Below the pieces are notes generated by a model. It saw only the letters and a program-made list of their open reading frames with translations, had not been told where the DNA came from and searched no databases. Both the position numbers and the translations under genes were made by a program. This document shows, one piece after another, positions 1 through 10,772 of a DNA stretch of 64,000 bases. The stretch lies in assembly GCF_009914755.1 (NCBI RefSeq), contig NC_060936.1, one strand, 5' to 3'. Source of the stretch: the human T2T-CHM13v2.0 reference genome, Homo sapiens. Every line of letters starts with the position of its first letter. The first letter of the stretch is position 1.

Positions 1-23
1 GGCATGAGCCACCGCGTCCGGCC
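1..23 (-). mobile_element. Alu (5' end only; rest upstream of window)
   Basis: ggcatgagccaccgcgtccggcc is the reverse complement of the Alu 5' end. Confidence 0.85.
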
Positions 24-75
24 TAAATGTCACTTAGTACCTTTGATATAAAGAGAAAATGTGTGAAAGATTTAG

Positions 76-386
76 TTTTTTGTTTTTTTGTTTGTTTGTT
101 TGTTTGTTTGTTTTGAGATGAGTCTCTCTGTCGCCCAGGCTGGAGTGCAGTGTCATGATCTAGCAGTCTCCGCTTCCCGGGTTCAAGCCATTCTCCTGGC
201 TCAGCCTCTGGAGCAGCTGGGATTACAGGCATGCACCACCATGCCCAGCTAATTTTTGTATTTTTAGTAGAGATAGGGTTTCACCATGTTGGCCAGGCTG
301 GTCACGAACTCCTGACCTCAAGTGAGGTCACCCGCCTCGGCCTCCCGAAGTGCTGGGATTGCAGATGTGAGCCACCATGTCCAGCC
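76..386 (-). mobile_element. Alu (AluS-like) with (TTTG)n tail
   Basis: Dimeric Alu consensus; TSD-like aagatttagt/aagaattagt. Confidence 0.92.
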
Positions 387-395
387 AAGAATTAG

Positions 396-720
<325 letters not shown>

Positions 721-856
721 TCAGATTTTTGATACTCTTAAACCTTCTGATCCTTAGTTTCTCTCTCCAAAATACTCTTTCTAGGTTAAAAAAAAAAGGC
801 TCTTATATTTGGTGCTATGTAAATGAAAATGTTTTTTAGGTTTTCTTGATTTAACA

Positions 857-978
857 ATAGAGACAGGGTCTCCCTGTGTTGCCCAGGCTGGTCTCGAACT
901 CCTGGGCTCAAGAGATCCTCCTGTCTTGGCCTCGCAAAGTGCTAAGTAGGATTACAGGCGTTAGCCACCACACCCGGC
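857..978 (-). mobile_element. Alu monomer (FLAM/AluJ left arm)
   Basis: gagacagggtctc...ctcgaactcctgggctcaag...ccaccacacccggc. Confidence 0.85.
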
Positions 979-1450
979 TGTAAAAATGTACTTATTCTCC
1001 AGCCTCTTTTGTATAAACCATAGTAAGGGATGGGAGTAATGATGTTATCTGTGAAAATAGCCACCATTTACCCGTAAGACAAAACTTGTTAAAGCCTCCT
1101 GAGTCTAACCTAGATTACATCAGGCCCTTTTTCACACACAAAAAAATCCTTTATGGGATTTAATGGAATCTGTTGTTTCCCCCTAAGTTGAAAAACAACT
1201 CTAAGACACTTTAAAGTACCTTCTTGGCCTGGGTTACATGGTTCCCAGCCTAGGTTTCAGACTTTTGCTTAAGGCCAGTTTTAGAAACCCGTGAATTCAG
1301 AAAAGTTAATTCAGAAATTTGATAAACAGAATTGTTATTTAAAAACTAACTGGAAAGATTGTTAAGTTCTTTCTGAATTATTCAGAAATTATGCATCATT
1401 TTCCTTCAAGAATGACAGGGTCAGCATGTGGAATTCCAAGATACCTCTTG

Positions 1451-2762
1451 ACTTCCTCTCAAGCTCCGTGTTTGGTCAGTGGAGGCCCATCCGAGCTCAG
1501 CACTGAGAAGTGTTAGTTTCTTTGGGACCCATCTACCCTGACCACATCATGATGTTCATCTGCAGCTGTTGCAAGGTGTTCAGATTGTATAAACATAAAT
1601 GTCACAAAAACTTTAAAAGAAGTGCAATTCTCAAAAGGTTAGGTGGACTAAAGCATTCTGTAAAGCAACTGCTAATAATGAGCTTACAGTGGATTTGAAT
1701 TTGAAAAATATAGTAACAAGCCTGTCAAATATCTGCAAGAACTATGGAATAAAACTACTGATGCAGTGAAGACAGTTGAAAAGATCAAACAAATGCCAAG
1801 CTATATTTATAATGAACAAATTCAAGAAAAAGGACTACGGAAAGTTCAGGACATCAAAGAAGTCAGGCAAAACTCATCTTGACCCCTGTTGCAGGCAAAG
1901 GAACGCAGCTGGAAGAAAAGATGATATAACAGTTAACAGGATGCAGACATGGCAGAGGTTTCCTAAAAATCTCATTATCTATAACCATTTCTATATTTAC
2001 ATTTGAAAATCTCCTTTGGAGACTTAGAACCTCTAAATTATTGACTTATTTTTTATATAAGGTCACTCCGATGAAAGGTGATTACAAAATCATCTACATT
2101 GCTGTCTACAAAACAGATAATATGGATGTTTGATCGCATCTCATTGTTAACTCTTTACTGATATGTTTGTAAATACAGAAGTGAAATGTGGACATAAAAT
2201 AGTTACGCTATTTGGTTAATGGTACTAGACAACATGTAATTAATGACATTCAAAAATTTATGGCTAGTGATATATATAAAGTAAAATTTTCTTTGCAGTA
2301 AAATATGCCCTTTATTATAGAAGGGAGGATATAAGGAACCAACAGTTTGTATGAAAATAGCTCAAATAATATCTTTTATTTTGATTTTAATATTTCTTAT
2401 TTTGGTTTATTAGTGTCTTAGAACAAAATGGCCTTATATAATGAAGCCTAGTTATGCTGGACTGTTTTGATCTCTTTTAATTGTTCTGACAGATAGTTGG
2501 GGATGAGAGCCGAATAAGGTTTGCCTGAAATAACTGACACTATATAATTTCTGCTTTGGCAAATACTAAGTTCTAACTTGTCATTCCTGGTAGAACAAGC
2601 TTTATTTTTCGAGCCTAGCAATGATCTAGAAGCAGATGTTATCTCAGTGCCTTTTGCAATTTGTTGTGTGGGTTTTTTTTTTTTTAAAGCCACACAATAA
2701 TTTTGGAAAACAATGTATGGGTAGAACATGTGTCTGTTAATTGCACACAAAACCACTTTTAA
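1451..2762 (+). pseudogene. Processed pseudogene (retrocopy) of RSL24D1/RLP24: 5'UTR + decayed CDS (~1499-1966) + 3'UTR
   Basis: Across shifting frames the sequence reads [34 protein letters not shown] / [16 protein letters not shown] / EFEK..ELWNKTTDAVKTVEKIK / QAIFIMNKFKK / KVQDIKEVRQN / AGKGTQLEEKMI*Q, colinear with RSL24D1 ([57 protein letters not shown]...ELWNKTIDAMKRVEEIK...KVQDIKEVKQN...AGKGKQLEEKM). No introns, start codon lost, stops and frameshifts present. UTR extent is from recalled parent mRNA and is less certain than the CDS match. Confidence 0.9.
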
Positions 2763-2791
2763 TGGGTACAGAGTTAAATTTGAAGGAATAA

Positions 2792-2895
2792 GTTCTAGCT
2801 GAAGTATTATGAACTCCAAATAATGCTTTGAGGACCTCCAAAGGTAAAAGTACTAATCCCTTTGGCCATTTATTGAGAGAGAGAGAGAGAGAGAG
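2792..2895. repeat. Left arm of non-Alu inverted repeat (ends in (GA)n)
   Basis: Reverse complement matches 3278-3386 with only a few mismatches. Confidence 0.95.
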
Positions 2896-3050
2896 TAGGG
2901 TGACTATAGTTAATGTATTGAATGTTCTTGCTACAAATAAATGATATTTGAGCTGATGGGTGTGCTAATTACACTGATTTGATCAATACCCATTGTATGT
3001 GAAACAGTACATACACCATATTTACAATTATGTATTTAACATTTAAAATT
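2896..3050 (+). mobile_element. L1MA-like 3' end fragment (inside the inverted-repeat loop)
   Basis: agggtgactatagttaa...gctaattacactgatttgatc...tttacaattatgta resembles old L1M 3'UTR. Confidence 0.65.
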
Positions 3051-3277
3051 TCTAATATAAGTATCTCTCAAACTGTGGATTAACTTCTTGATTTATATTT
3101 AAATATGAATCTTAAGCAAAACAGTGAAAATAACCATCTTGATTTAGTGTTTTTCTCCCATATGTGAATTGTATATACTTAGGTGAGGACAATAAAATCA
3201 ACTGAACTGTAAGCTTAGAATAGGACTGAGGTAATTCTGCACAGCAACTTTACTAATGGTACATTGTTGCTTCAAAA

Positions 3278-3386
3278 CTCTCTCTCTCTCTCTCTGTCTG
3301 TCTCAATAAATGGCCAAAGGGATTAGTAGTTTACCTGTGGAGGTCCTCCAAGCATTATTTGGAGTTGATAATACTTCAGCTACAAC
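3278..3386. repeat. Right arm of non-Alu inverted repeat (starts with (CT)n)
   Basis: ctctc..caataaatggccaaagggattagta..tggaggtcctccaagcattatttggagttgataatacttcagctacaac. Confidence 0.95.
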
Positions 3387-3576
3387 CAAGCAGAATCTCT
3401 TTTTTTTGGAGGTCCTCGAAGCATTATTTGGAGTTGATAATACTTCAGCTTCAATTTGGAGTTGATAATATTTCAGCTAGAACCTAGTAGAATCTGTTTT
3501 TTTCCTTTGGAGGTCCTCAAAGCATTATTGGAGTTCATAATACTGAAGCTAGAACCAAGCAGAATCTGTTTTTTTC
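3338..3576 (+). repeat. Three ~70-nt tandem units (unit 2 has an internal ~24-nt duplication)
   Basis: tggaggtcctcNaagcattatt(t)ggagttNataatactNNagct..aaccNagNagaatctNttttttt starting at 3338, 3407 and 3508. Confidence 0.95.
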
Positions 3577-4341
3577 TGAGGAGTATCGGTAGCATAAATG
3601 TGATTATAAACATAGTACACTTGATATATGGAGGCAGTGACAGCTATTTTTACAAAATTTAAATCTGCAAATGGATTCAACATGTTTATGGGTTATTAAA
3701 ATTGTCTGATTTCTTAGGTTCTTTATAGTACACGTGTTGAAAATAAATGATTAAGAATTGTTTCAAGAATGCAATTATTTGATCTTAAATTTTTATGAGT
3801 TGTTAAAATAGAAATTATTTGAATATCATATATTTGGGTAACAAAAGGCACAAGTCTGAATGTGTTTCTTTTTCTGGAATGGCCATGCCTGCCCACTTTA
3901 GAAATACAAATATCACTGGGCAGCTTGAAGCAGTTGGGAGCCTCCAATGAGAGCAACTTGAGAGAATGATGTTGCAAGTTAGTAGGAGTAAGAAATGCTG
4001 TGTTCTCCCTGTCTTCTCTTAGGTCACATGGCAGCCTGGCCTAAGTGATCGTGAATGGTCTATAAGGGAGGTAGCTGGGACAGGGAGGGGAGTTTGGGCT
4101 AGCCACCGTACCACTTGTCAGCGTGAAAAGTAAGATTGTAATTGCCTGTTTAGTTTTCTGCCTCATCTTTGAAAGTTCCACCAAGCTGGGAACCTCTTGA
4201 TTGTGATGCACAAATGTAAGTACATCAGAAAAAAACAAAAAAACTGGCTTTAAAGCAGGAGCTTGTGGGCCCCTAAGCCAGACGGGGACTAGCTTTTGGC
4301 ATTATATAATTAAGATTTTTTAAATCCTTAATAAGGGTTTT

Positions 4342-4646
4342 ATTTTATTTTTATTTATTTTTTGAGACGGAGTCTTGCTCTGTGGCTCAGGCTGGAGTAC
4401 AGTGGTGCAATCTTGGCTCACTGCAACCTCTGCCTCCTGGCTGTGTTCAAGTGGTTCTGCTTCAGCCTCCCAAGTAGCTGGGGTTAGAGCACCCTGTCAC
4501 CACGCCCCGCTAATTTTTGTATTTCTAGCAGAGATGAAGTTTCACTATGTTGGCCAGGCTGGGCTCAAACTCCTGACCTCAAGTGATCTGCCCGCCTTGG
4601 CCCCCCAAAGTGCTGTGATTACAGGCGTGAGCCGCCACGCCCAGCC
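4342..4646 (-). mobile_element. Alu (AluS-like) with TSD TAATAAGGGTTTT
   Basis: Alu consensus; TSD at 4329-4341 and 4647-4659. Confidence 0.93.
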
Positions 4647-4990
4647 TAATAAGGGTTTTAAAGATAATTAGTGTGTAGGTCTGTAGGCTTATGATGGTAA
4701 CCACAAGTTGTTAATGGCATTGTGAAAAGTTTTTAGTTGCGCTTTATGGGTGGATGCTGAATTACATTTTGATTTGATACTTATAAAAAGAAAAAGTATT
4801 TCTTCAGCTTAAAAAATTGTTTAAAAGTTTGTGATCATATTGTCTACCATGTAGCCAGCTTTCAATTATATGTAAGAGGGACTTTTTGACATTTACAAAT
4901 AATACTTTGAGGTAGATATCTGAAAGCACCAGCACTTGGAAGGTGTTCAGAAGTAACAAATTATAAAATGAGCTAACAAACGAAAGGCAA

Positions 4991-4996
4991 AATAAA
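4991..4996 (+). terminator. Candidate MDM2 intermediate poly(A) signal
   Basis: AATAAA; usage not demonstrable from sequence. Confidence 0.4.
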
Positions 4997-5327
4997 ACCG
5001 TAAAGCAAGCAGATGGGAGGCGTGTTCAGTAACTTATTCATAATGCATCTGAAATGATTGCTGTACTCAAATATTTAACGTTAGAGTAATAGTATTTTGA
5101 ATGAAAACCATAGTTGATTGTCTTTAGAGAGAGGAGTGGTACTGAAACATACTTGAATTCGTATTGCTTTCCTTTAAAGCTCTCCTTTAAAGACTTTAAA
5201 AAAAATTCGATAGGCATTTTCATGTTTCAGTCCTACAATCCCACATCTCTGCTGCCTTCAGAATGCTACAACTTAGATGTCCAGCCAACAGCTTAAAGCC
5301 AATTTATAAAAATAGCATCTTTCCTAA

Positions 5328-6002
<675 letters not shown>

Positions 6003-6561
6003 TAGGTGAATTTCATTTATTTCTCAGGGTTAAATTTTAGCGCTTTTGCCTGTGTCTATTTTTGGTTCACACCTCCCCAGCCCACTGTCCTGTATTAAGT
6101 AGGCCTTCCTTCAAGATCACAGTAATATCTCCCTAAATGGATTTCACTACGTTTGGTCCTATTTTTGGTTCAGTTATAGTTTACAGATACCATCATGTTG
6201 CTTCCCTGATTTAAATATTGGGGGAAAAACTTGCTTTTTGGATTTTATCTCTGATGTTCTACTGGATTATTTTAGACTTTTAGAACACTATGAAATGGGT
6301 GCTTGCTTTTCACTTTTCAAACCTTTTTTGCTTAAACAAAGTTCATAAGCTTATTGTAGTGGGAAGTTCAAAGTCACAGATCTGGTACTTACTCGCCTAG
6401 TGACCTTAGAGACAATAAATCTATAGAGCCTAGTATGGGGTCTGGCAGGTAGTAAGCACTTTTAATGAATGGAAGTTTAATATTCTGTTTGCATCCACTC
6501 GACCATAATCACCCCAAATCCAGCTTAGGTAGCCTTGAATTAACCCCTACTCCACCTTGAA

Positions 6562-6920
6562 GTTTTTTATTTGTTTTTTGCTGAGACAGGGTCTCATTCT
6601 GTCACCCAGGCTGGAGTATAGTGGCGCAAACATGACTCACTGCAGCCTCCTGAGTAGCTGGGAACACAGGCCTGTTGCCACCATGCCTGGCTAATATATA
6701 TATTATATATAATATACATATATTACATATATATATATAATACATATGTGTTTATGTATGTATGTGTGTGTACATTATATATATATATATACTTTTTTTA
6801 GAGGCAGAGTCCTGCTATGTTGCCCAGGCTGGCCTTGAACTCCTGGGCTCAAGCAATCCTCGTGTCTTGACCTTGACCTCTCAAAATGCTGGGATTACAG
6901 GTGCGAGCCACTGCATCTGG
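6562..6920 (-). mobile_element. AluJ-like with internal (TA)n-rich expansion (6695-6791)
   Basis: Alu arms separated by an AT dinucleotide tract. Confidence 0.85.
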
Positions 6921-7031
6921 TGAATTAAGCCTTTTTTATACACTCAACTCTGAGGTATTCTGTTCATACCAATATGTTCCTTTGTATCTTCTTGCCATAG
7001 CAGGTTGTAACATCCTTTTGTATCTCCTTTC

Positions 7032-7342
<311 letters not shown>

Positions 7343-7449
7343 TCAAATGTCAAATAAATACATTGTGTATACAGTAGTAAAGGATGTTGATTGGCATTGA
7401 AAGCAACTATCAAGTTCTTGTTGATTTAGAAGACAAAAAGACAATTTTA

Positions 7450-7722
<273 letters not shown>

Positions 7723-7763
7723 TAACAGTATGTTCATTAAACATTAATCTCACTGATTGTGAT

Positions 7764-8045
7764 TTTTTGTTTGTTTTTTTGAGATGGCGTCTCGCTCTGT
7801 TGCCCAGGGTGGAGTGCAATGGCGTGATCTTGGCTCACTGCAGCCTCCACCTCCTGGGTTCAAGTGATTCTCCTGCTTTAGCCTCCCAAGTAGCTGTGTT
7901 ATTTCAGCTAATTTTTTCATTTTTAGTGGAGATGGGGTTTTGCCATGTTGGCCAGGCTGGTCTCGAATTCCTGACCTCATGTGGTCCACCTGCCTCGGCC
8001 TCCCAAAGTGCTGGGATTACAGGCATTGAGCCACTGTGCCTGGCC
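7764..8045 (-). mobile_element. Alu (AluS-like)
   Basis: Alu consensus. Confidence 0.92.
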
Positions 8046-8266
8046 TGATTATGATTTTTTAAAGTCCCCCCCCAAATTATTGTTTGTGCAATAAATGGCA
8101 AAAAAGAAGCATTCTAAGAAAAAAGTAGTCTTAAAAGTTGATATGGTGTCAGAATTGTAAGAGAGAGGGTCTTGGCTGAAAAGCCTTTTTAGAAAAAATT
8201 GCTCCCTACAAAAAAGGCCTTTTCTACCTTTTCTCACATTTGTTTCTTTTTATAGGAGGCATCTGA

Positions 8267-8590
<324 letters not shown>

Positions 8591-8673
8591 CAAAGTTAAG
8601 CATTTTTTAACCACAAGGTGGGAGGTGGAAGTATCTCGTTGGAAGACTAAAGGTGTCCACTAACGGTAGACCC

Positions 8674-9487
<814 letters not shown>

Positions 9488-9559
9488 GGTAGACTCTTAA
9501 CAGCGCTGAGAGACCACTCCAAGAGAGCAGAGAAATAATAGTTCTATTCTCAGTTGTCA

Positions 9560-9986
<427 letters not shown>

Positions 9987-10239
9987 TTATTTTCTAAATT
10001 GAGACGTCACTTTTTAAAAATTGGTACCTGTAATTTAGCCATTTCCTACTCAGCAATGTCTCATTTAAACTATTATTTGTTTAGCGTGTTTCAAAGAGCA
10101 GATGTAAGCTTGAGCCCATCCTCTGTCCTATGACTAAGTCGATATTAGCAGGGGTTAGGACTGTTAGTTTTCCAGTTCCTACTGGAGGCAAATTCTTTGT
10201 TTACCACTGTTCTCTGTATTTCAAAAGCACCTGGAAATC

Positions 10240-10245
10240 AATAAA
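10240..10245 (+). terminator. Distal MDM2 poly(A) signal
   Basis: AATAAA with upstream TGTA and downstream U-rich sequence; matches recollection of the long MDM2 isoform ending close to CPM. Confidence 0.6.
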
Positions 10246-10772
10246 ATTTGTTATTCAGAACAAAAGCCTTCTCTATATATCAGTATTTCCCAAAATGTGT
10301 TTGGAAATATAGGTATGTTAATCCAAAGGGATGGTACGAGGCTGTATTATTTAAGGAAATGGTCCCATAGCTTAGCATGTTTGGGAAATCCATTTCTTTT
10401 CTGCATTTCTCAGATTCTTTATTACATTAATATAAATTGTGAATTTTCAAATATTTTTTCTGACCAGAAGGCATACTTTCCATCCATCATCTTGTCCATG
10501 GAACACACTGCCCCACAACACAAATTAATTTGGAATGTATTATATATAATATATATAACATATAGCATATGTAACTTGTTCTGGAAGAACTATCTGGACT
10601 TTGAAGAGTTGTTGCAATGTTATTGCCTCATAAAAGGTCATTAAGTTTGGTCTTTCCCAAGCTTTATTTGGTGGTAATCAGTTATTTTTAGTGGACTTTG
10701 TTATACTTGCATAAGTACTTATTTTCAGGTAACATAATGGGAAAAAAGCATTATTTATATGGATATTAGTTC

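What the first reader, a model, noticed from the sequence alone, without database searches (positions are those of the whole stretch)
2792..3386. Non-Alu ~105-bp inverted repeat forming a long dsRNA stem in the MDM2 3'UTR
Seen: 2792-2895 is the near-perfect reverse complement of 3278-3386, including (GA)n/(CT)n inner ends, around a ~380-nt loop with an old L1 fragment. It resembles no repeat family I recognise. All Alus in the first 7.4 kb of the window share one orientation, so this is the only long intramolecular stem visible here for short and medium MDM2 isoforms. Established: such stems are ADAR/STAU1/PKR substrates, and MDM2 3'UTR A-to-I hyper-editing has been reported (recalled, not verified here). 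Inference: this stem is the edited structure.
Basis: partly seen in the sequence, partly recalled or inferred. Interest (0 to 1): 0.8.

Follow-up and report, generated by a model that had tools for sequence, protein, structure and literature searches.

The report
MDM2 3'UTR non-Alu editing hairpin
A roughly 100-base-pair hairpin in the tail of the MDM2 messenger RNA, made by an ancient inverted duplication and not by Alu repeats, is the double-stranded structure under a well-known cluster of A-to-I RNA editing sites whose structural basis a 2025 paper left unexplained.

Summary
Window 2792-2895 and 3278-3386 are about 93% complementary and fold into a 99-bp stem around a 382-nt loop. It is the only inverted self-match of 50 nt or more in window 1-5123.

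All 15 of 15 amplicon-validated MDM2 A-to-I sites of PMC12085317 map into the two arms, at 2803-2872 and 3306-3357. None maps to the loop or the rest of the 1139-nt amplicon. All 15 sit in A-U pairs. That paper found no Alu nearby and proposed other sequences or proteins.

New here:
- The arm sequence occurs only in MDM2 and its 5'-truncated retrocopies.
- Three older retrocopies carry 16 nt where the left arm now sits, and a younger chrX retrocopy has both arms. So the left arm is a derived inverted duplication.
- In the chrX retrocopy every arm transition is A>G (7, against 0 G>A, T>C or C>T). Four of the seven fall on present-day editing sites. This looks like a fossil of an edited mRNA.

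The editing is known and the kind of structure is known. The stem, its origin and the fossil were in none of the papers I could search. Interest is moderate.

The parts
2792..2895 (+). Left arm of the hairpin. It is a derived, inverted copy of the right arm and ends in (GA)n at 2875-2895. It carries validated A-to-I sites 2803, 2809, 2812, 2813, 2842, 2852, 2855 and 2872.
   Evidence: Searches show the repeat and the pairing. Retrocopies L002, L004 and L022 lack it and have 16 nt in its place. Sites come from PMC12085317 Table S3 and were mapped.
2896..3277 (+). The 382-nt loop. Window 2896-3062 is a fragment of a dispersed repeat (L1 3' end by recall). Window 3063-3277 was found only in MDM2 and its retrocopies. 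No validated editing site lies here.
   Evidence: 0 of 15 sites.
3278..3386 (+). Right arm, the source copy: (CT)n at 3278-3304, then unique sequence, then the first copy of the ~70-nt tandem unit. It carries validated A-to-I sites 3306, 3308, 3318, 3328, 3333, 3351 and 3357. Site 3333 is hg19 69237534, the RESSq-PCR biomarker site.
   Evidence: It is present in six of the seven retrocopies compared; the chr18 copy gave no match between 3253 and 3518.
3387..3600 (+). Further tandem copies of the ~70-nt unit. They are alternative, about equally stable partners for the outer half of the left arm. No validated editing site is reported here although the amplicon covers this stretch.
   Evidence: families D1, D2; pairs I2, I4-I6. 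One search gives outer-half duplex energies of -84.3, -82.0 and -88.0 kcal/mol for copies 1, 2 and 3. Sites.
3742..3757 (+). AATAAA at 3742-3747 and the cleavage region. Six of the seven MDM2 3'UTR retrocopies end here and continue as A-rich tails, so transcripts ending here contain the whole hairpin.

Best explanation
**What it is.** Window 2792-2895 and 3278-3386 form an intramolecular, imperfect 99-bp double-stranded RNA stem. It lies in the part of the MDM2 3'UTR shared by the RefSeq isoforms (exons ending at 5009, 5123 and 10265) and by transcripts ending at the AATAAA at 3742. This stem is the ADAR1 substrate behind the long-known non-Alu cluster of A-to-I sites in MDM2 (hg19 chr12:69,237,004-69,237,073 and 69,237,507-69,237,558).

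**How it arose.** The stem came from a single mutation in the primate lineage. A 98-nt inverted copy of the downstream (CT)n-plus-unique segment replaced 16 nt at the 5' edge of an old dispersed-repeat fragment. The junctions share 4 nt and 2 nt with the ancestral sequence, as expected for a replication template switch.

**How long it has been edited.** The stem was already being edited in the germline when the chrX retrocopy was made.

**Shown here:**
- the stem exists;
- it is the only such stem in window 1-5123;
- all 15 edited sites coincide with paired adenosines in the arms;
- the left arm is derived;
- the chrX retrocopy carries a one-directional A>G signature in the arms.

**Taken from papers:** ADAR1 dependence and effects on MDM2 expression.

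**Inferred:**
- the template-switch mechanism;
- the age, roughly 20-35 million years;
- that the stem, not the distal inverted Alus, is what ADAR1 (and possibly STAU1) reads on the short and medium isoforms.

Whether the stem is a selected regulator or a tolerated accident is open. I lean to a tolerated accident that cells now use as they use any edited duplex.
For: **Structure**
- The arms are 93-94% complementary.
- The fold has z = -25.7 on the + strand and z = -20 in the wider 2780-3600 context.
- There are 99 inter-arm pairs.

**Editing maps to the stem**
- 15 of 15 validated sites lie in the arms, 0 in the loop or flanks of the 2506-3644 amplicon (P = 7e-13).
- All 15 are in A-U pairs. 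Their 5' neighbours are U 8, A 6, G 1.
- Sites 2812 (50% G), 2842 (58% G) and 3328 (30% G) lie 1 nt from a helix defect (G% from Table S7).

**Not Alu, not a repeat family**
- The source table labels the sites 'no repeats'.
- PMC12085317 states there are no Alu elements around the MDM2 editing.
- The arm sequence gave 15 matches genome-wide, all in MDM2 and five retrocopy loci.

**ADAR1 dependence (from papers)**
- Editing at hg19 69237534 (window 3333) rose 2-10-fold with wild-type ADAR1, with only very low levels under a catalytically inactive ADAR1 (PMC4341880 passages).

**Origin**
- L002 (chr11), L004 (chr2) and L022 (chr18) align colinearly across the site but hold 16 nt in place of the 98-nt arm. 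L003 (chrX) has both arms.
- The left arm is 98% identical to the reverse complement of L002's arm.

**Fossil editing**
- Window against L003, transitions in the arms: A>G 7, G>A 0, T>C 0, C>T 0. Outside the arms: 7, 7, 6, 5 (Fisher P = 0.001).
- 4 of the 7 fall on validated sites.
- All 7 are derived in L003, judged from outgroup retrocopies or the complementary arm.
- In four retrocopies without a left arm, 1 of 12 derived right-arm changes is A>G.
Against: - **No direct structure data.** I saw no in-cell evidence (PARIS, hiCLIP, SHAPE, J2) for this stem. The pairing is predicted.
- **A competing register.** With the tandem copies included, the minimum-energy fold pairs the outer half of the left arm with the last copy (3499-3555), not the adjacent one. 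The three registers differ by only about 6 kcal/mol. The contiguous register is favoured only by the positions of the edits.
- **Possible reporting bias.** The 15 sites come from one paper's amplicon. Its authors started from predicted sites, so weakly edited adenosines elsewhere may have gone unreported. One of the 9 MDM2 rows in their TCGA table was not seen by me and may lie elsewhere.
- **Small numbers in the fossil test.** It rests on 13 arm differences. The coincidence with modern sites alone gives P = 0.05.
- **No sign of selection on the pairing.** Four right-arm substitutions since the duplication all break pairs. None is compensated and there is no arm homogenisation. The stem's roughly 6% mismatch is about what neutral decay since the chrX copy would give.
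- **Contradictory functional literature.** ADAR1 knock-down raised MDM2 protein in PMC5520689. It lowered MDM2 mRNA in PMC6838198.
Confidence: 0.88

Rival explanations
1. The duplex that ADAR edits is intermolecular. MDM2 3'UTR RNA would pair with antisense CPM transcripts, whose alternative last exon lies at 1776-1908 and whose intron covers this region on the minus strand.
For: The hub annotation shows CPM transcripts overlapping the MDM2 3'UTR in antisense. PMC13445718 lists a region in MDM2 as its one additional GENCODE-derived candidate for cis-antisense editing (passage).
Against: A sense-antisense duplex would be perfect and continuous, so editing should spread over the whole overlap. 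Instead, 15 of 15 sites lie in the two arms and 0 among the adenosines of the 382-nt loop between them. The same paper concludes that editing in such regions generally follows intramolecular structure (passages). The minus strand folds into the same hairpin on its own (-227.7 kcal/mol, z = -14.2), which would explain editing on both strands.
Confidence: 0.03
2. The stem is real, but its dominant form in cells is branched. The inner half (2847-2895 with 3284-3332) pairs as described. The outer half of the left arm pairs with a distal tandem copy (3405-3457 or 3499-3555) instead of 3330-3386.
For: The minimum-energy fold of 2780-3600 chooses the last copy. Outer-half duplex energies are -88.0 kcal/mol (copy 3), -84.3 (copy 1) and -82.0 (copy 2). 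Copy 3 pairs position 2811, which is a G-G mismatch with copy 1.
Against: Three validated sites (3333, 3351, 3357) lie in copy 1. None is reported in 3387-3644, which the amplicon covers. The chrX retrocopy has an arm-type A>G at 3354 and no derived A>G in 3387-3600.
Confidence: 0.1
3. Editing here does not depend on a local long duplex. ADAR1 would be brought to the 3'UTR by proteins of the polyadenylation machinery (CSTF2), or by the distal inverted Alus of the long isoform.
For: PMC12085317 proposes a CSTF2-ADAR1 interaction because it saw no Alu near the sites (passages). PMC5520689 ascribes MDM2 3'UTR editing to an inverted Alu pair (passages). Opposite-orientation Alus do exist at 7443-7725 and 9572-9891.
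Against: A 99-bp duplex sits exactly under the sites, and the sites stop at its edges. The retrocopied mRNA that carries the A>G fossil ended at about 3757 and so had no distal Alus. Protein recruitment may add to the duplex but is not needed to explain where the sites lie.
Confidence: 0.03
4. The inverted repeat is the pair of terminal inverted repeats of a DNA transposon or MITE that inserted into the 3'UTR.
For: Two inverted arms flank an internal segment, which is the general look of such elements.
Against: Three ancestral-state copies have the right arm and the loop but not the left arm, so the arms did not arrive together. The arm has no genomic copies outside MDM2-derived loci. The internal segment is a fragment of a different dispersed repeat.
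Confidence: 0.01

Closest known systems
Inverted Alu pairs (IRAlus) in 3'UTRs, including those in the distal MDM2 3'UTR (bioRxiv 10.1101/2023.11.30.569399; PMC5520689)
   Same: Both are long imperfect intramolecular duplexes in a 3'UTR that are hyper-edited by ADAR1. The literature links them to nuclear retention and to competition between STAU1 and ADAR1.
   Different: The arms are not Alu and belong to no repeat family. The stem is about 100 bp, against roughly 300 bp for an Alu pair. It lies in the common, proximal part of the 3'UTR, so it is present in short and medium isoforms that lack the Alu pair. It arose by a local inverted duplication, not by two retrotransposon insertions.
Non-repetitive hyper-edited hairpins found by genome-wide screens (class described in Ramaswami et al. 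2012, seen only as a citation; dsRNAscan preprint PMC11838218, seen only in the search listing; PMC13445718)
   Same: Same kind of object: a non-Alu intramolecular duplex marked by clustered A-to-G mismatches. This locus is very probably inside such catalogues.
   Different: None of the texts I could read describes this particular stem, its arms, its origin or its retrocopy record.
Template-switch mutations that create hairpins (four-point model of Loytynoja and Goldman 2017, recalled and not read here)
   Same: An inverted copy of nearby sequence replaces a short stretch in one event and leaves a new perfect stem. There is short shared sequence at both junctions (4 nt and 2 nt).
   Different: At 98 nt copied from about 390-490 nt away, it is much longer than the events of tens of bases that I recall as typical of that class.

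Membership tests
ADAR hyper-edited intramolecular dsRNA in a 3'UTR | Long intramolecular duplex of tens to hundreds of bp within one transcript | tested here: met
   99 inter-arm pairs, longest perfect run 28 bp, z = -25.7. Both arms lie inside the annotated last exon (-1146 to 5123).
ADAR hyper-edited intramolecular dsRNA in a 3'UTR | Clustered A-to-G differences between cDNA and genomic DNA, on the sense strand, confined to the paired segments | tested here: met
   Published sites were mapped here: 15 of 15 in the arms, all A-U paired, 0 in the loop or flanks of the amplicon.
ADAR hyper-edited intramolecular dsRNA in a 3'UTR | 5'-neighbour preference of ADAR, with G disfavoured (preference recalled) | tested here: met
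   5' neighbours are U 8, A 6, G 1, C 0. The sample is small.
ADAR hyper-edited intramolecular dsRNA in a 3'UTR | Editing depends on catalytically active ADAR1 | not testable with these tools
   From papers only. PMC4341880 reports a rise at 69237534 with wild-type ADAR1 and only very low editing with a mutant ADAR1. The title of PMC12085317 also points to ADAR1.
Inverted Alu pair (IRAlus) | Both arms are Alu elements in opposite orientation | tested here: not met
   The arms match none of the window's Alu copies in the self-comparison. Genome-wide, the left-arm query (window 2785-2875) gave 15 matches, all in MDM2-derived loci. The source table says 'no repeats'.
Template-switch inverted duplication | Inverted copy of nearby sequence replaces ancestral bases, and the ancestral state can be seen | tested here: met
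   Three retrocopies (chr11, chr2, chr18) hold 16 nt where the 98-nt arm now lies. The chrX copy and the gene have the arm.
Template-switch inverted duplication | Short shared sequence at the switch points | tested here: inconclusive
   4 nt are shared at the left junction and 2 nt at the right, read. Matches this short are also expected by chance, the right one especially, because it lies in a dinucleotide repeat.
STAU1-binding 3'UTR duplex (Staufen-mediated decay or shuttling) | STAU1 crosslinks to the duplex and the mRNA level responds to STAU1 | not testable with these tools
   PMC6838198 and PMC5520689 call MDM2 an ADAR1/STAU1 target, but neither passage says which duplex.
DNA transposon or MITE | Arms arrive together, many genomic copies, target-site duplication | tested here: not met
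   The ancestral state has one arm only. There are no independent copies.

The most novel reading that the evidence does not exclude
One template-switch mutation, some 20-35 million years ago, created an ADAR1-read (and perhaps STAU1-read) double-stranded switch in the common 3'UTR of MDM2. This would give Old World primates an editing-dependent control of the p53-MDM2 axis that other mammals lack. The chrX retrocopy is a preserved copy of a single edited germline mRNA molecule, with 7 inosines read as G. If so, retrocopies can be used as a fossil record to date when a given duplex became an ADAR substrate.
Probability: 0.2. Interest if true: 0.7.

Novelty: new member of a known kind. Interest (0 to 1): 0.5.

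Why it matters
MDM2 3'UTR editing is widely used. Site 69237534 is a read-out of ADAR1 activity in leukaemia stem cells. Sites 69237004 and 69237010 have been tied to loss of miR-200b/c repression. A 2025 study links the cluster to MDM2 levels in breast cancer and states that the lack of Alu repeats leaves the cause of editing open.

Naming the duplex gives those studies a concrete, testable element: two about 100-nt arms that can be deleted or masked with antisense oligonucleotides. It also warns that microRNA sites inside the arms sit in a stable helix.

The duplex separates two things that the literature mixes. One is the proximal non-Alu stem, present in all annotated isoforms. The other is the distal inverted Alus, present only in the long isoform.

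The retrocopy series gives a dated, stepwise history of how a long double-stranded RNA can arise in a key oncogene without any transposon pair. It also gives an example of RNA editing fossilised in DNA.

Tried and rejected
- **Rfam scan** of 2400-3900 at E<=1. It gave three weak hits at 2617-2709 (mir-308, mir-2797, rivX), all far below their gathering scores and outside the stem. I rejected them as chance.
- **Tandem Repeats Finder** at score 30. It did not report the ~70-nt tandem unit that the repeat finder shows, probably because the copies are truncated and interleaved.
- **Target-site duplication** for the chrX retrocopy. No shared word of 8 nt or more was found between the 75 nt before and the 100 nt after it. 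Its retrocopy status rests on the A-tail and the shared 3' end.
- **Intron-loss test.** It was not possible, because all seven copies are 5'-truncated inside the last exon. The longest, on chr11, starts at window 862.
- **Dating by K2P distance** is noisy. Window against L003 gave 0.029 (loop) and 0.077 (tail), and the other copies gave 0.044-0.103. The characters that order L002 and L004 conflict: tandem copy number against small indels. I therefore claim only that the copies without the arm predate the arm.
- **Earlier findings of this scan** were not open.
Its full list of MDM2 sites, 22 with increased editing according to Table 2, was therefore not mapped.
- **Literature searches for a description of this stem** found none. 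Subscription papers were not readable. One example, recalled by me, is the 2019 Cancer Cell paper on MDM2 hyper-editing and miR-155.
Full report
**1. The observation**

The window is T2T chr12:68,820,001-68,884,000. The finding lies in the last exon of MDM2 (exon -1146 to 5123 of NM_002392.6, from the hub annotation).

- **Inverted repeat.** The repeat finder reports arms 2792-2848/3330-3386 (57 nt, 93% complementary) and 2847-2895/3284-3332 (49 nt, 94%). A global alignment joins them into one repeat of about 104 nt with 1-nt indels.
- **Microsatellites.** The inner ends are (GA)10.5 at 2875-2895 and (CT)13.5 at 3278-3304.
- **Fold.** As RNA, 2780-3400 folds at -242.1 kcal/mol, against -132.5 +/- 4.3 for 20 shuffles (z = -25.7). 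The wider 2780-3600 gives -295.1 (z = -20.3).
- **Stem.** It has 99 inter-arm pairs, none of them G-U. Five single mismatches, a 2-nt/1-nt internal loop and a 6-nt bulge in the (CT)n interrupt it. Perfect runs are 3, 15, 17, 11, 7, 28 and 18 bp.
- **Loop.** The loop is 382 nt.
- **Uniqueness.** In a self-comparison of 1-10265, the only inverted match of 50 nt or more inside 1-5123 is this pair. Alu-like copies in the opposite orientation first appear at 7443-7725 and 9572-9891.

From 3330 to about 3600 the right side is a tandem array of about 3.5 copies of a roughly 70-nt unit. The outer half of the left arm therefore has three nearly equivalent partners, at -84.3, -82.0 and -88.0 kcal/mol.

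**2. Is it the edited structure?**

PMC12085317 (Funct Integr Genomics 2025) sequenced a genomic and a cDNA amplicon of the MDM2 3'UTR. I read passages, the whole of section 18, all of supplementary file 1, and passages of file 2. Table S3 lists 15 A-to-I sites in hg19 coordinates.

- **Amplicon.** The paper's primers lie at window 2506-2525 and 3622-3644. The amplicon covers both arms, the loop, the tandem copies and 286 nt upstream.
- **Coordinate conversion.** Of 7000 offsets tried, only one (69,234,201) puts an A under all 15 sites.
- **Site positions.** The sites are 2803, 2809, 2812, 2813, 2842, 2852, 2855, 2872 and 3306, 3308, 3318, 3328, 3333, 3351, 3357.
- **Location.** All 15 lie in the arms, which hold 62 of the amplicon's 360 adenosines (P = 7e-13). 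None lies in the loop, the upstream flank or the distal tandem copies.
- **Pairing.** All 15 are in A-U pairs of the contiguous stem. Their 5' neighbours are U 8, A 6, G 1.
- **Editing level.** Sites 2812 (50% G), 2842 (58% G) and 3328 (30% G) lie 1 nt from a helix defect (G% in MCF7 from Table S7).

The same paper says that RepeatMasker found no Alu around the sites. [quoted passage not shown] Its source table labels the sites 'no repeats'.

Other papers use these same sites without naming a structure:
- hg19 69237534 (window 3333) is the MDM2 marker of the RESSq-PCR ADAR1 assay. It is listed as '3'UTR', while the other markers are labelled 'Alu' (PMC4341880 passages).
- hg19 69237004 and 69237010 (window 2803 and 2809) are named in the Figure 5 legend of the study that ties editing at three MDM2 sites to loss of miR-200b/c repression. 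The words hairpin, inverted and secondary structure do not occur in that text (PMC4793219).
- PMC5520689 ascribes MDM2 3'UTR editing to an inverted Alu pair (passages).
- A 2023 preprint studies the distal Alu cluster of the long isoform (passages).

Seven full-text searches found no paper that describes this stem. Subscription papers and most supplements were out of reach.

**3. What the arms are and where the stem came from**

*The arm occurs only in MDM2-derived loci.* A search of the whole assembly with the left arm gave 15 matches, all in MDM2 or in five other loci. These five, and two more found through the loop sequence, are copies of the MDM2 3'UTR itself:

| Locus | Place | First window position matched |
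|---|---|---|
| L002 | chr11:74.41 Mb | 862 |
| L003 | chrX:63.27 Mb | 2683 |
| L022 | chr18:69.74 Mb | 2712 |
| L004 | chr2:104.52 Mb | 2721 |
| L021 | chr17:48.30 Mb | about 2897 |
| L007 | chrX:24.77 Mb | 2991 |
| L009 | chr2:137.43 Mb | 3045 |

 Six of the seven end at window 3752-3757, 10 nt past the AATAAA at 3742-3747, and continue as A-rich tails. The chr17 copy loses its similarity to the window before that point. Variable 5' ends with one shared 3' end at a polyadenylation signal are the marks of retrocopied mRNA. No intron-loss test was possible, because all copies start inside the last exon.

*The left arm is derived.* Four copies span the left-arm site. In three of them (chr11, chr2, chr18) the flanks align base for base, but 16 nt stand where the 98-nt arm now is. 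These 16 nt continue the dispersed-repeat fragment that forms the start of the loop. The fourth, chrX:63.27 Mb, has both arms and the same tandem array as the gene.

The left arm is therefore an inverted copy of the (CT)n-plus-unique segment that replaced 16 nt. It arose after the first three copies were made and before the chrX copy.

*Junctions.* The new and old sequences share 4 nt at the left junction and 2 nt at the right. This fits a replication template switch, but the shared stretches are too short to prove one.

*Closeness to the ancestral arm.* The left arm is 98% identical to the reverse complement of the chr11 copy's arm, against 92% to the gene's own right arm. Both the left arm and the chr11 arm are therefore close to the ancestral sequence.

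*Age.* Distances are noisy: window against the chrX copy gave 0.029 and 0.077 in two clean segments, and the chr11 copy gave 0.044 and 0.096. With a recalled neutral rate of about 1e-9 per site per year, the arm would be very roughly 20-35 million years old. This is an inference.

*Decay of the stem.* Since the duplication, the gene's right arm has gained four single-base changes (3329, 3337, 3349, 3381). Two are shared with the chrX copy. All four break pairs. None is compensated, and the left arm shows no change since the chrX copy split off. I see neither compensatory change nor homogenisation. The stem's roughly 6% mismatch is about what neutral decay would give.

**4. A fossil of editing**

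Between the window and the chrX retrocopy, the transitions inside the arms are A>G 7, G>A 0, T>C 0, C>T 0. Outside the arms, over 2683-3757, they are 7, 7, 6 and 5.

| Test | Result |
|---|---|
| A>G against other transitions, arms against non-arms | Fisher P = 0.001 |
| A>G per adenosine, arms against non-arms | 11.3% against 2.4%, P = 0.005 |
| Derived changes that are A>G, arms against non-arms | 7 of 10 against 3 of 14, P = 0.024 |

- **Polarity.** All seven G's are derived in the retrocopy. For the right arm, the other retrocopies and the gene all have A. For the left arm, the complementary position of the right arm is T.
- **Match to modern sites.** Four of the seven (2812, 2813, 3308, 3328) are among the 15 present-day sites (P = 0.05 for the coincidence alone). 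The other three (2822, 2868, 3354) are paired arm adenosines that I could not look up.
- **Control.** In the four retrocopies that lack a left arm and span the right arm, 1 of 12 derived right-arm changes is A>G.

The simplest reading is that the mRNA molecule copied into chrX had been edited at seven arm positions. If so, the stem was already an ADAR substrate in the germline at that time. That molecule ended at about 3757 and carried no distal Alus.

**5. How it most likely works**

*Shown:* a 99-bp imperfect duplex in the common 3'UTR, and editing confined to it.

*From papers:*
- ADAR1 catalysis is needed.
- MDM2 mRNA is treated as a joint ADAR1/STAU1 target, whose level falls on ADAR1 knock-down and recovers when STAU1 or UPF2 is also removed (PMC6838198 passages).
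- Editing has been linked to loss of miR-200b/c repression.
- The direction of ADAR1's effect on MDM2 protein differs between studies. In a reporter assay the MDM2 3'UTR was inhibited only by ADAR2 overexpression, not by ADAR1.

*Inferred:*
- On isoforms ending at 3757, 5009 or 5123, this stem is the only element that ADAR1, STAU1 or other dsRNA-binding proteins could read.
- MicroRNA sites inside the arms are buried in a helix, so editing may act as much by loosening the helix as by changing seed matches.
- The stem's mismatches, and its longest perfect run of 28 bp, keep it a poor trigger for dsRNA sensors. The length thresholds are recalled, not tested.

I found no evidence that selection maintains the stem.

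**6. Rivals**

- **Antisense pairing with CPM transcripts.** This is a real possibility raised by the annotation and by PMC13445718, which lists an MDM2 region as a cis-antisense candidate. The empty loop speaks against it. The minus strand also folds into the same hairpin by itself.
- **A branched register using the last tandem copy.** It is thermodynamically as good. The positions of the modern and the fossil edits disfavour it.
- **Protein-only recruitment or distal Alus.** Neither is needed to explain the site positions, and neither fits the fossil.
- **A transposon with terminal inverted repeats.** The one-armed ancestral copies exclude it.

**7. Verdict**

The editing cluster is already known, and the kind of structure is a known kind. 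The specific stem, its birth by inverted duplication, the series of seven retrocopies that dates it, and the editing fossil were in none of the papers that I could search. Specialists would not be surprised that a hairpin underlies a non-Alu cluster. Still, the stem resolves a question stated in print in 2025 and gives a clean handle for experiments.

**Limits**
- No REDIportal data.
- No in-cell structure data.
- No other primate genomes.

Noticed in passing
L002 (chr11:74.41 Mb), L003 (chrX:63.27 Mb), L004 (chr2:104.52 Mb), L007 (chrX:24.77 Mb), L009 (chr2:137.43 Mb), L021 (chr17:48.30 Mb), L022 (chr18:69.74 Mb): There are at least seven 5'-truncated retrocopies of the MDM2 3'UTR. Six share the 3' end at window 3752-3757, just after the AATAAA at 3742. 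None reaches the coding region. This suggests long-standing germline use of this polyadenylation site.
   Followed up: partly
window 3330-3600; L002, L007, L009 against L004, L003: The ~70-nt unit is single-copy in three retrocopies but present in 3 to 3.5 copies in the chr2:104.5 Mb copy, the chrX:63.27 Mb copy and the gene. Small indels order the chr11 and chr2 copies the opposite way. So either the array expanded twice or it collapsed in some copies.
   Followed up: partly
window 3278-3304; L007 and L009: The two oldest-looking copies carry a long (CA)n run ahead of the (CT)n, where the gene has (CT)n only. The microsatellite sits at the 3' end of the dispersed-repeat fragment and may descend from its A-tail.
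   Followed up: no
window 2780-3400, minus strand (CPM intron): The same hairpin folds on the minus strand (-227.7 kcal/mol, z = -14.2). CPM transcripts with a last exon at 1776-1908 would carry it in an intron. PMC13445718 lists an MDM2 region as edited and expressed on both strands.
   Followed up: partly
window 7443-7725 and 9572-9891: These are the only opposite-orientation Alu-like copies within the long MDM2 3'UTR (to 10265). They can pair with about a dozen same-sense Alus between 88 and 9485. They are probably the inverted Alu cluster studied in the 2023 preprint.
   Followed up: no
window 3329, 3337, 3349, 3381: All four substitutions in the gene's right arm since the duplication are transversions that break a base pair, while the left arm has none. 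The numbers are too small to separate chance from selection against a perfect duplex.
   Followed up: partly
window 3613-3650 and 3756-3771: The gene lineage has a cluster of its own substitutions here: 12 window-specific changes in the 3' flank against 4 in the loop. Compared with all retrocopies, it also has a shortened sequence just after the AATAAA.
   Followed up: no
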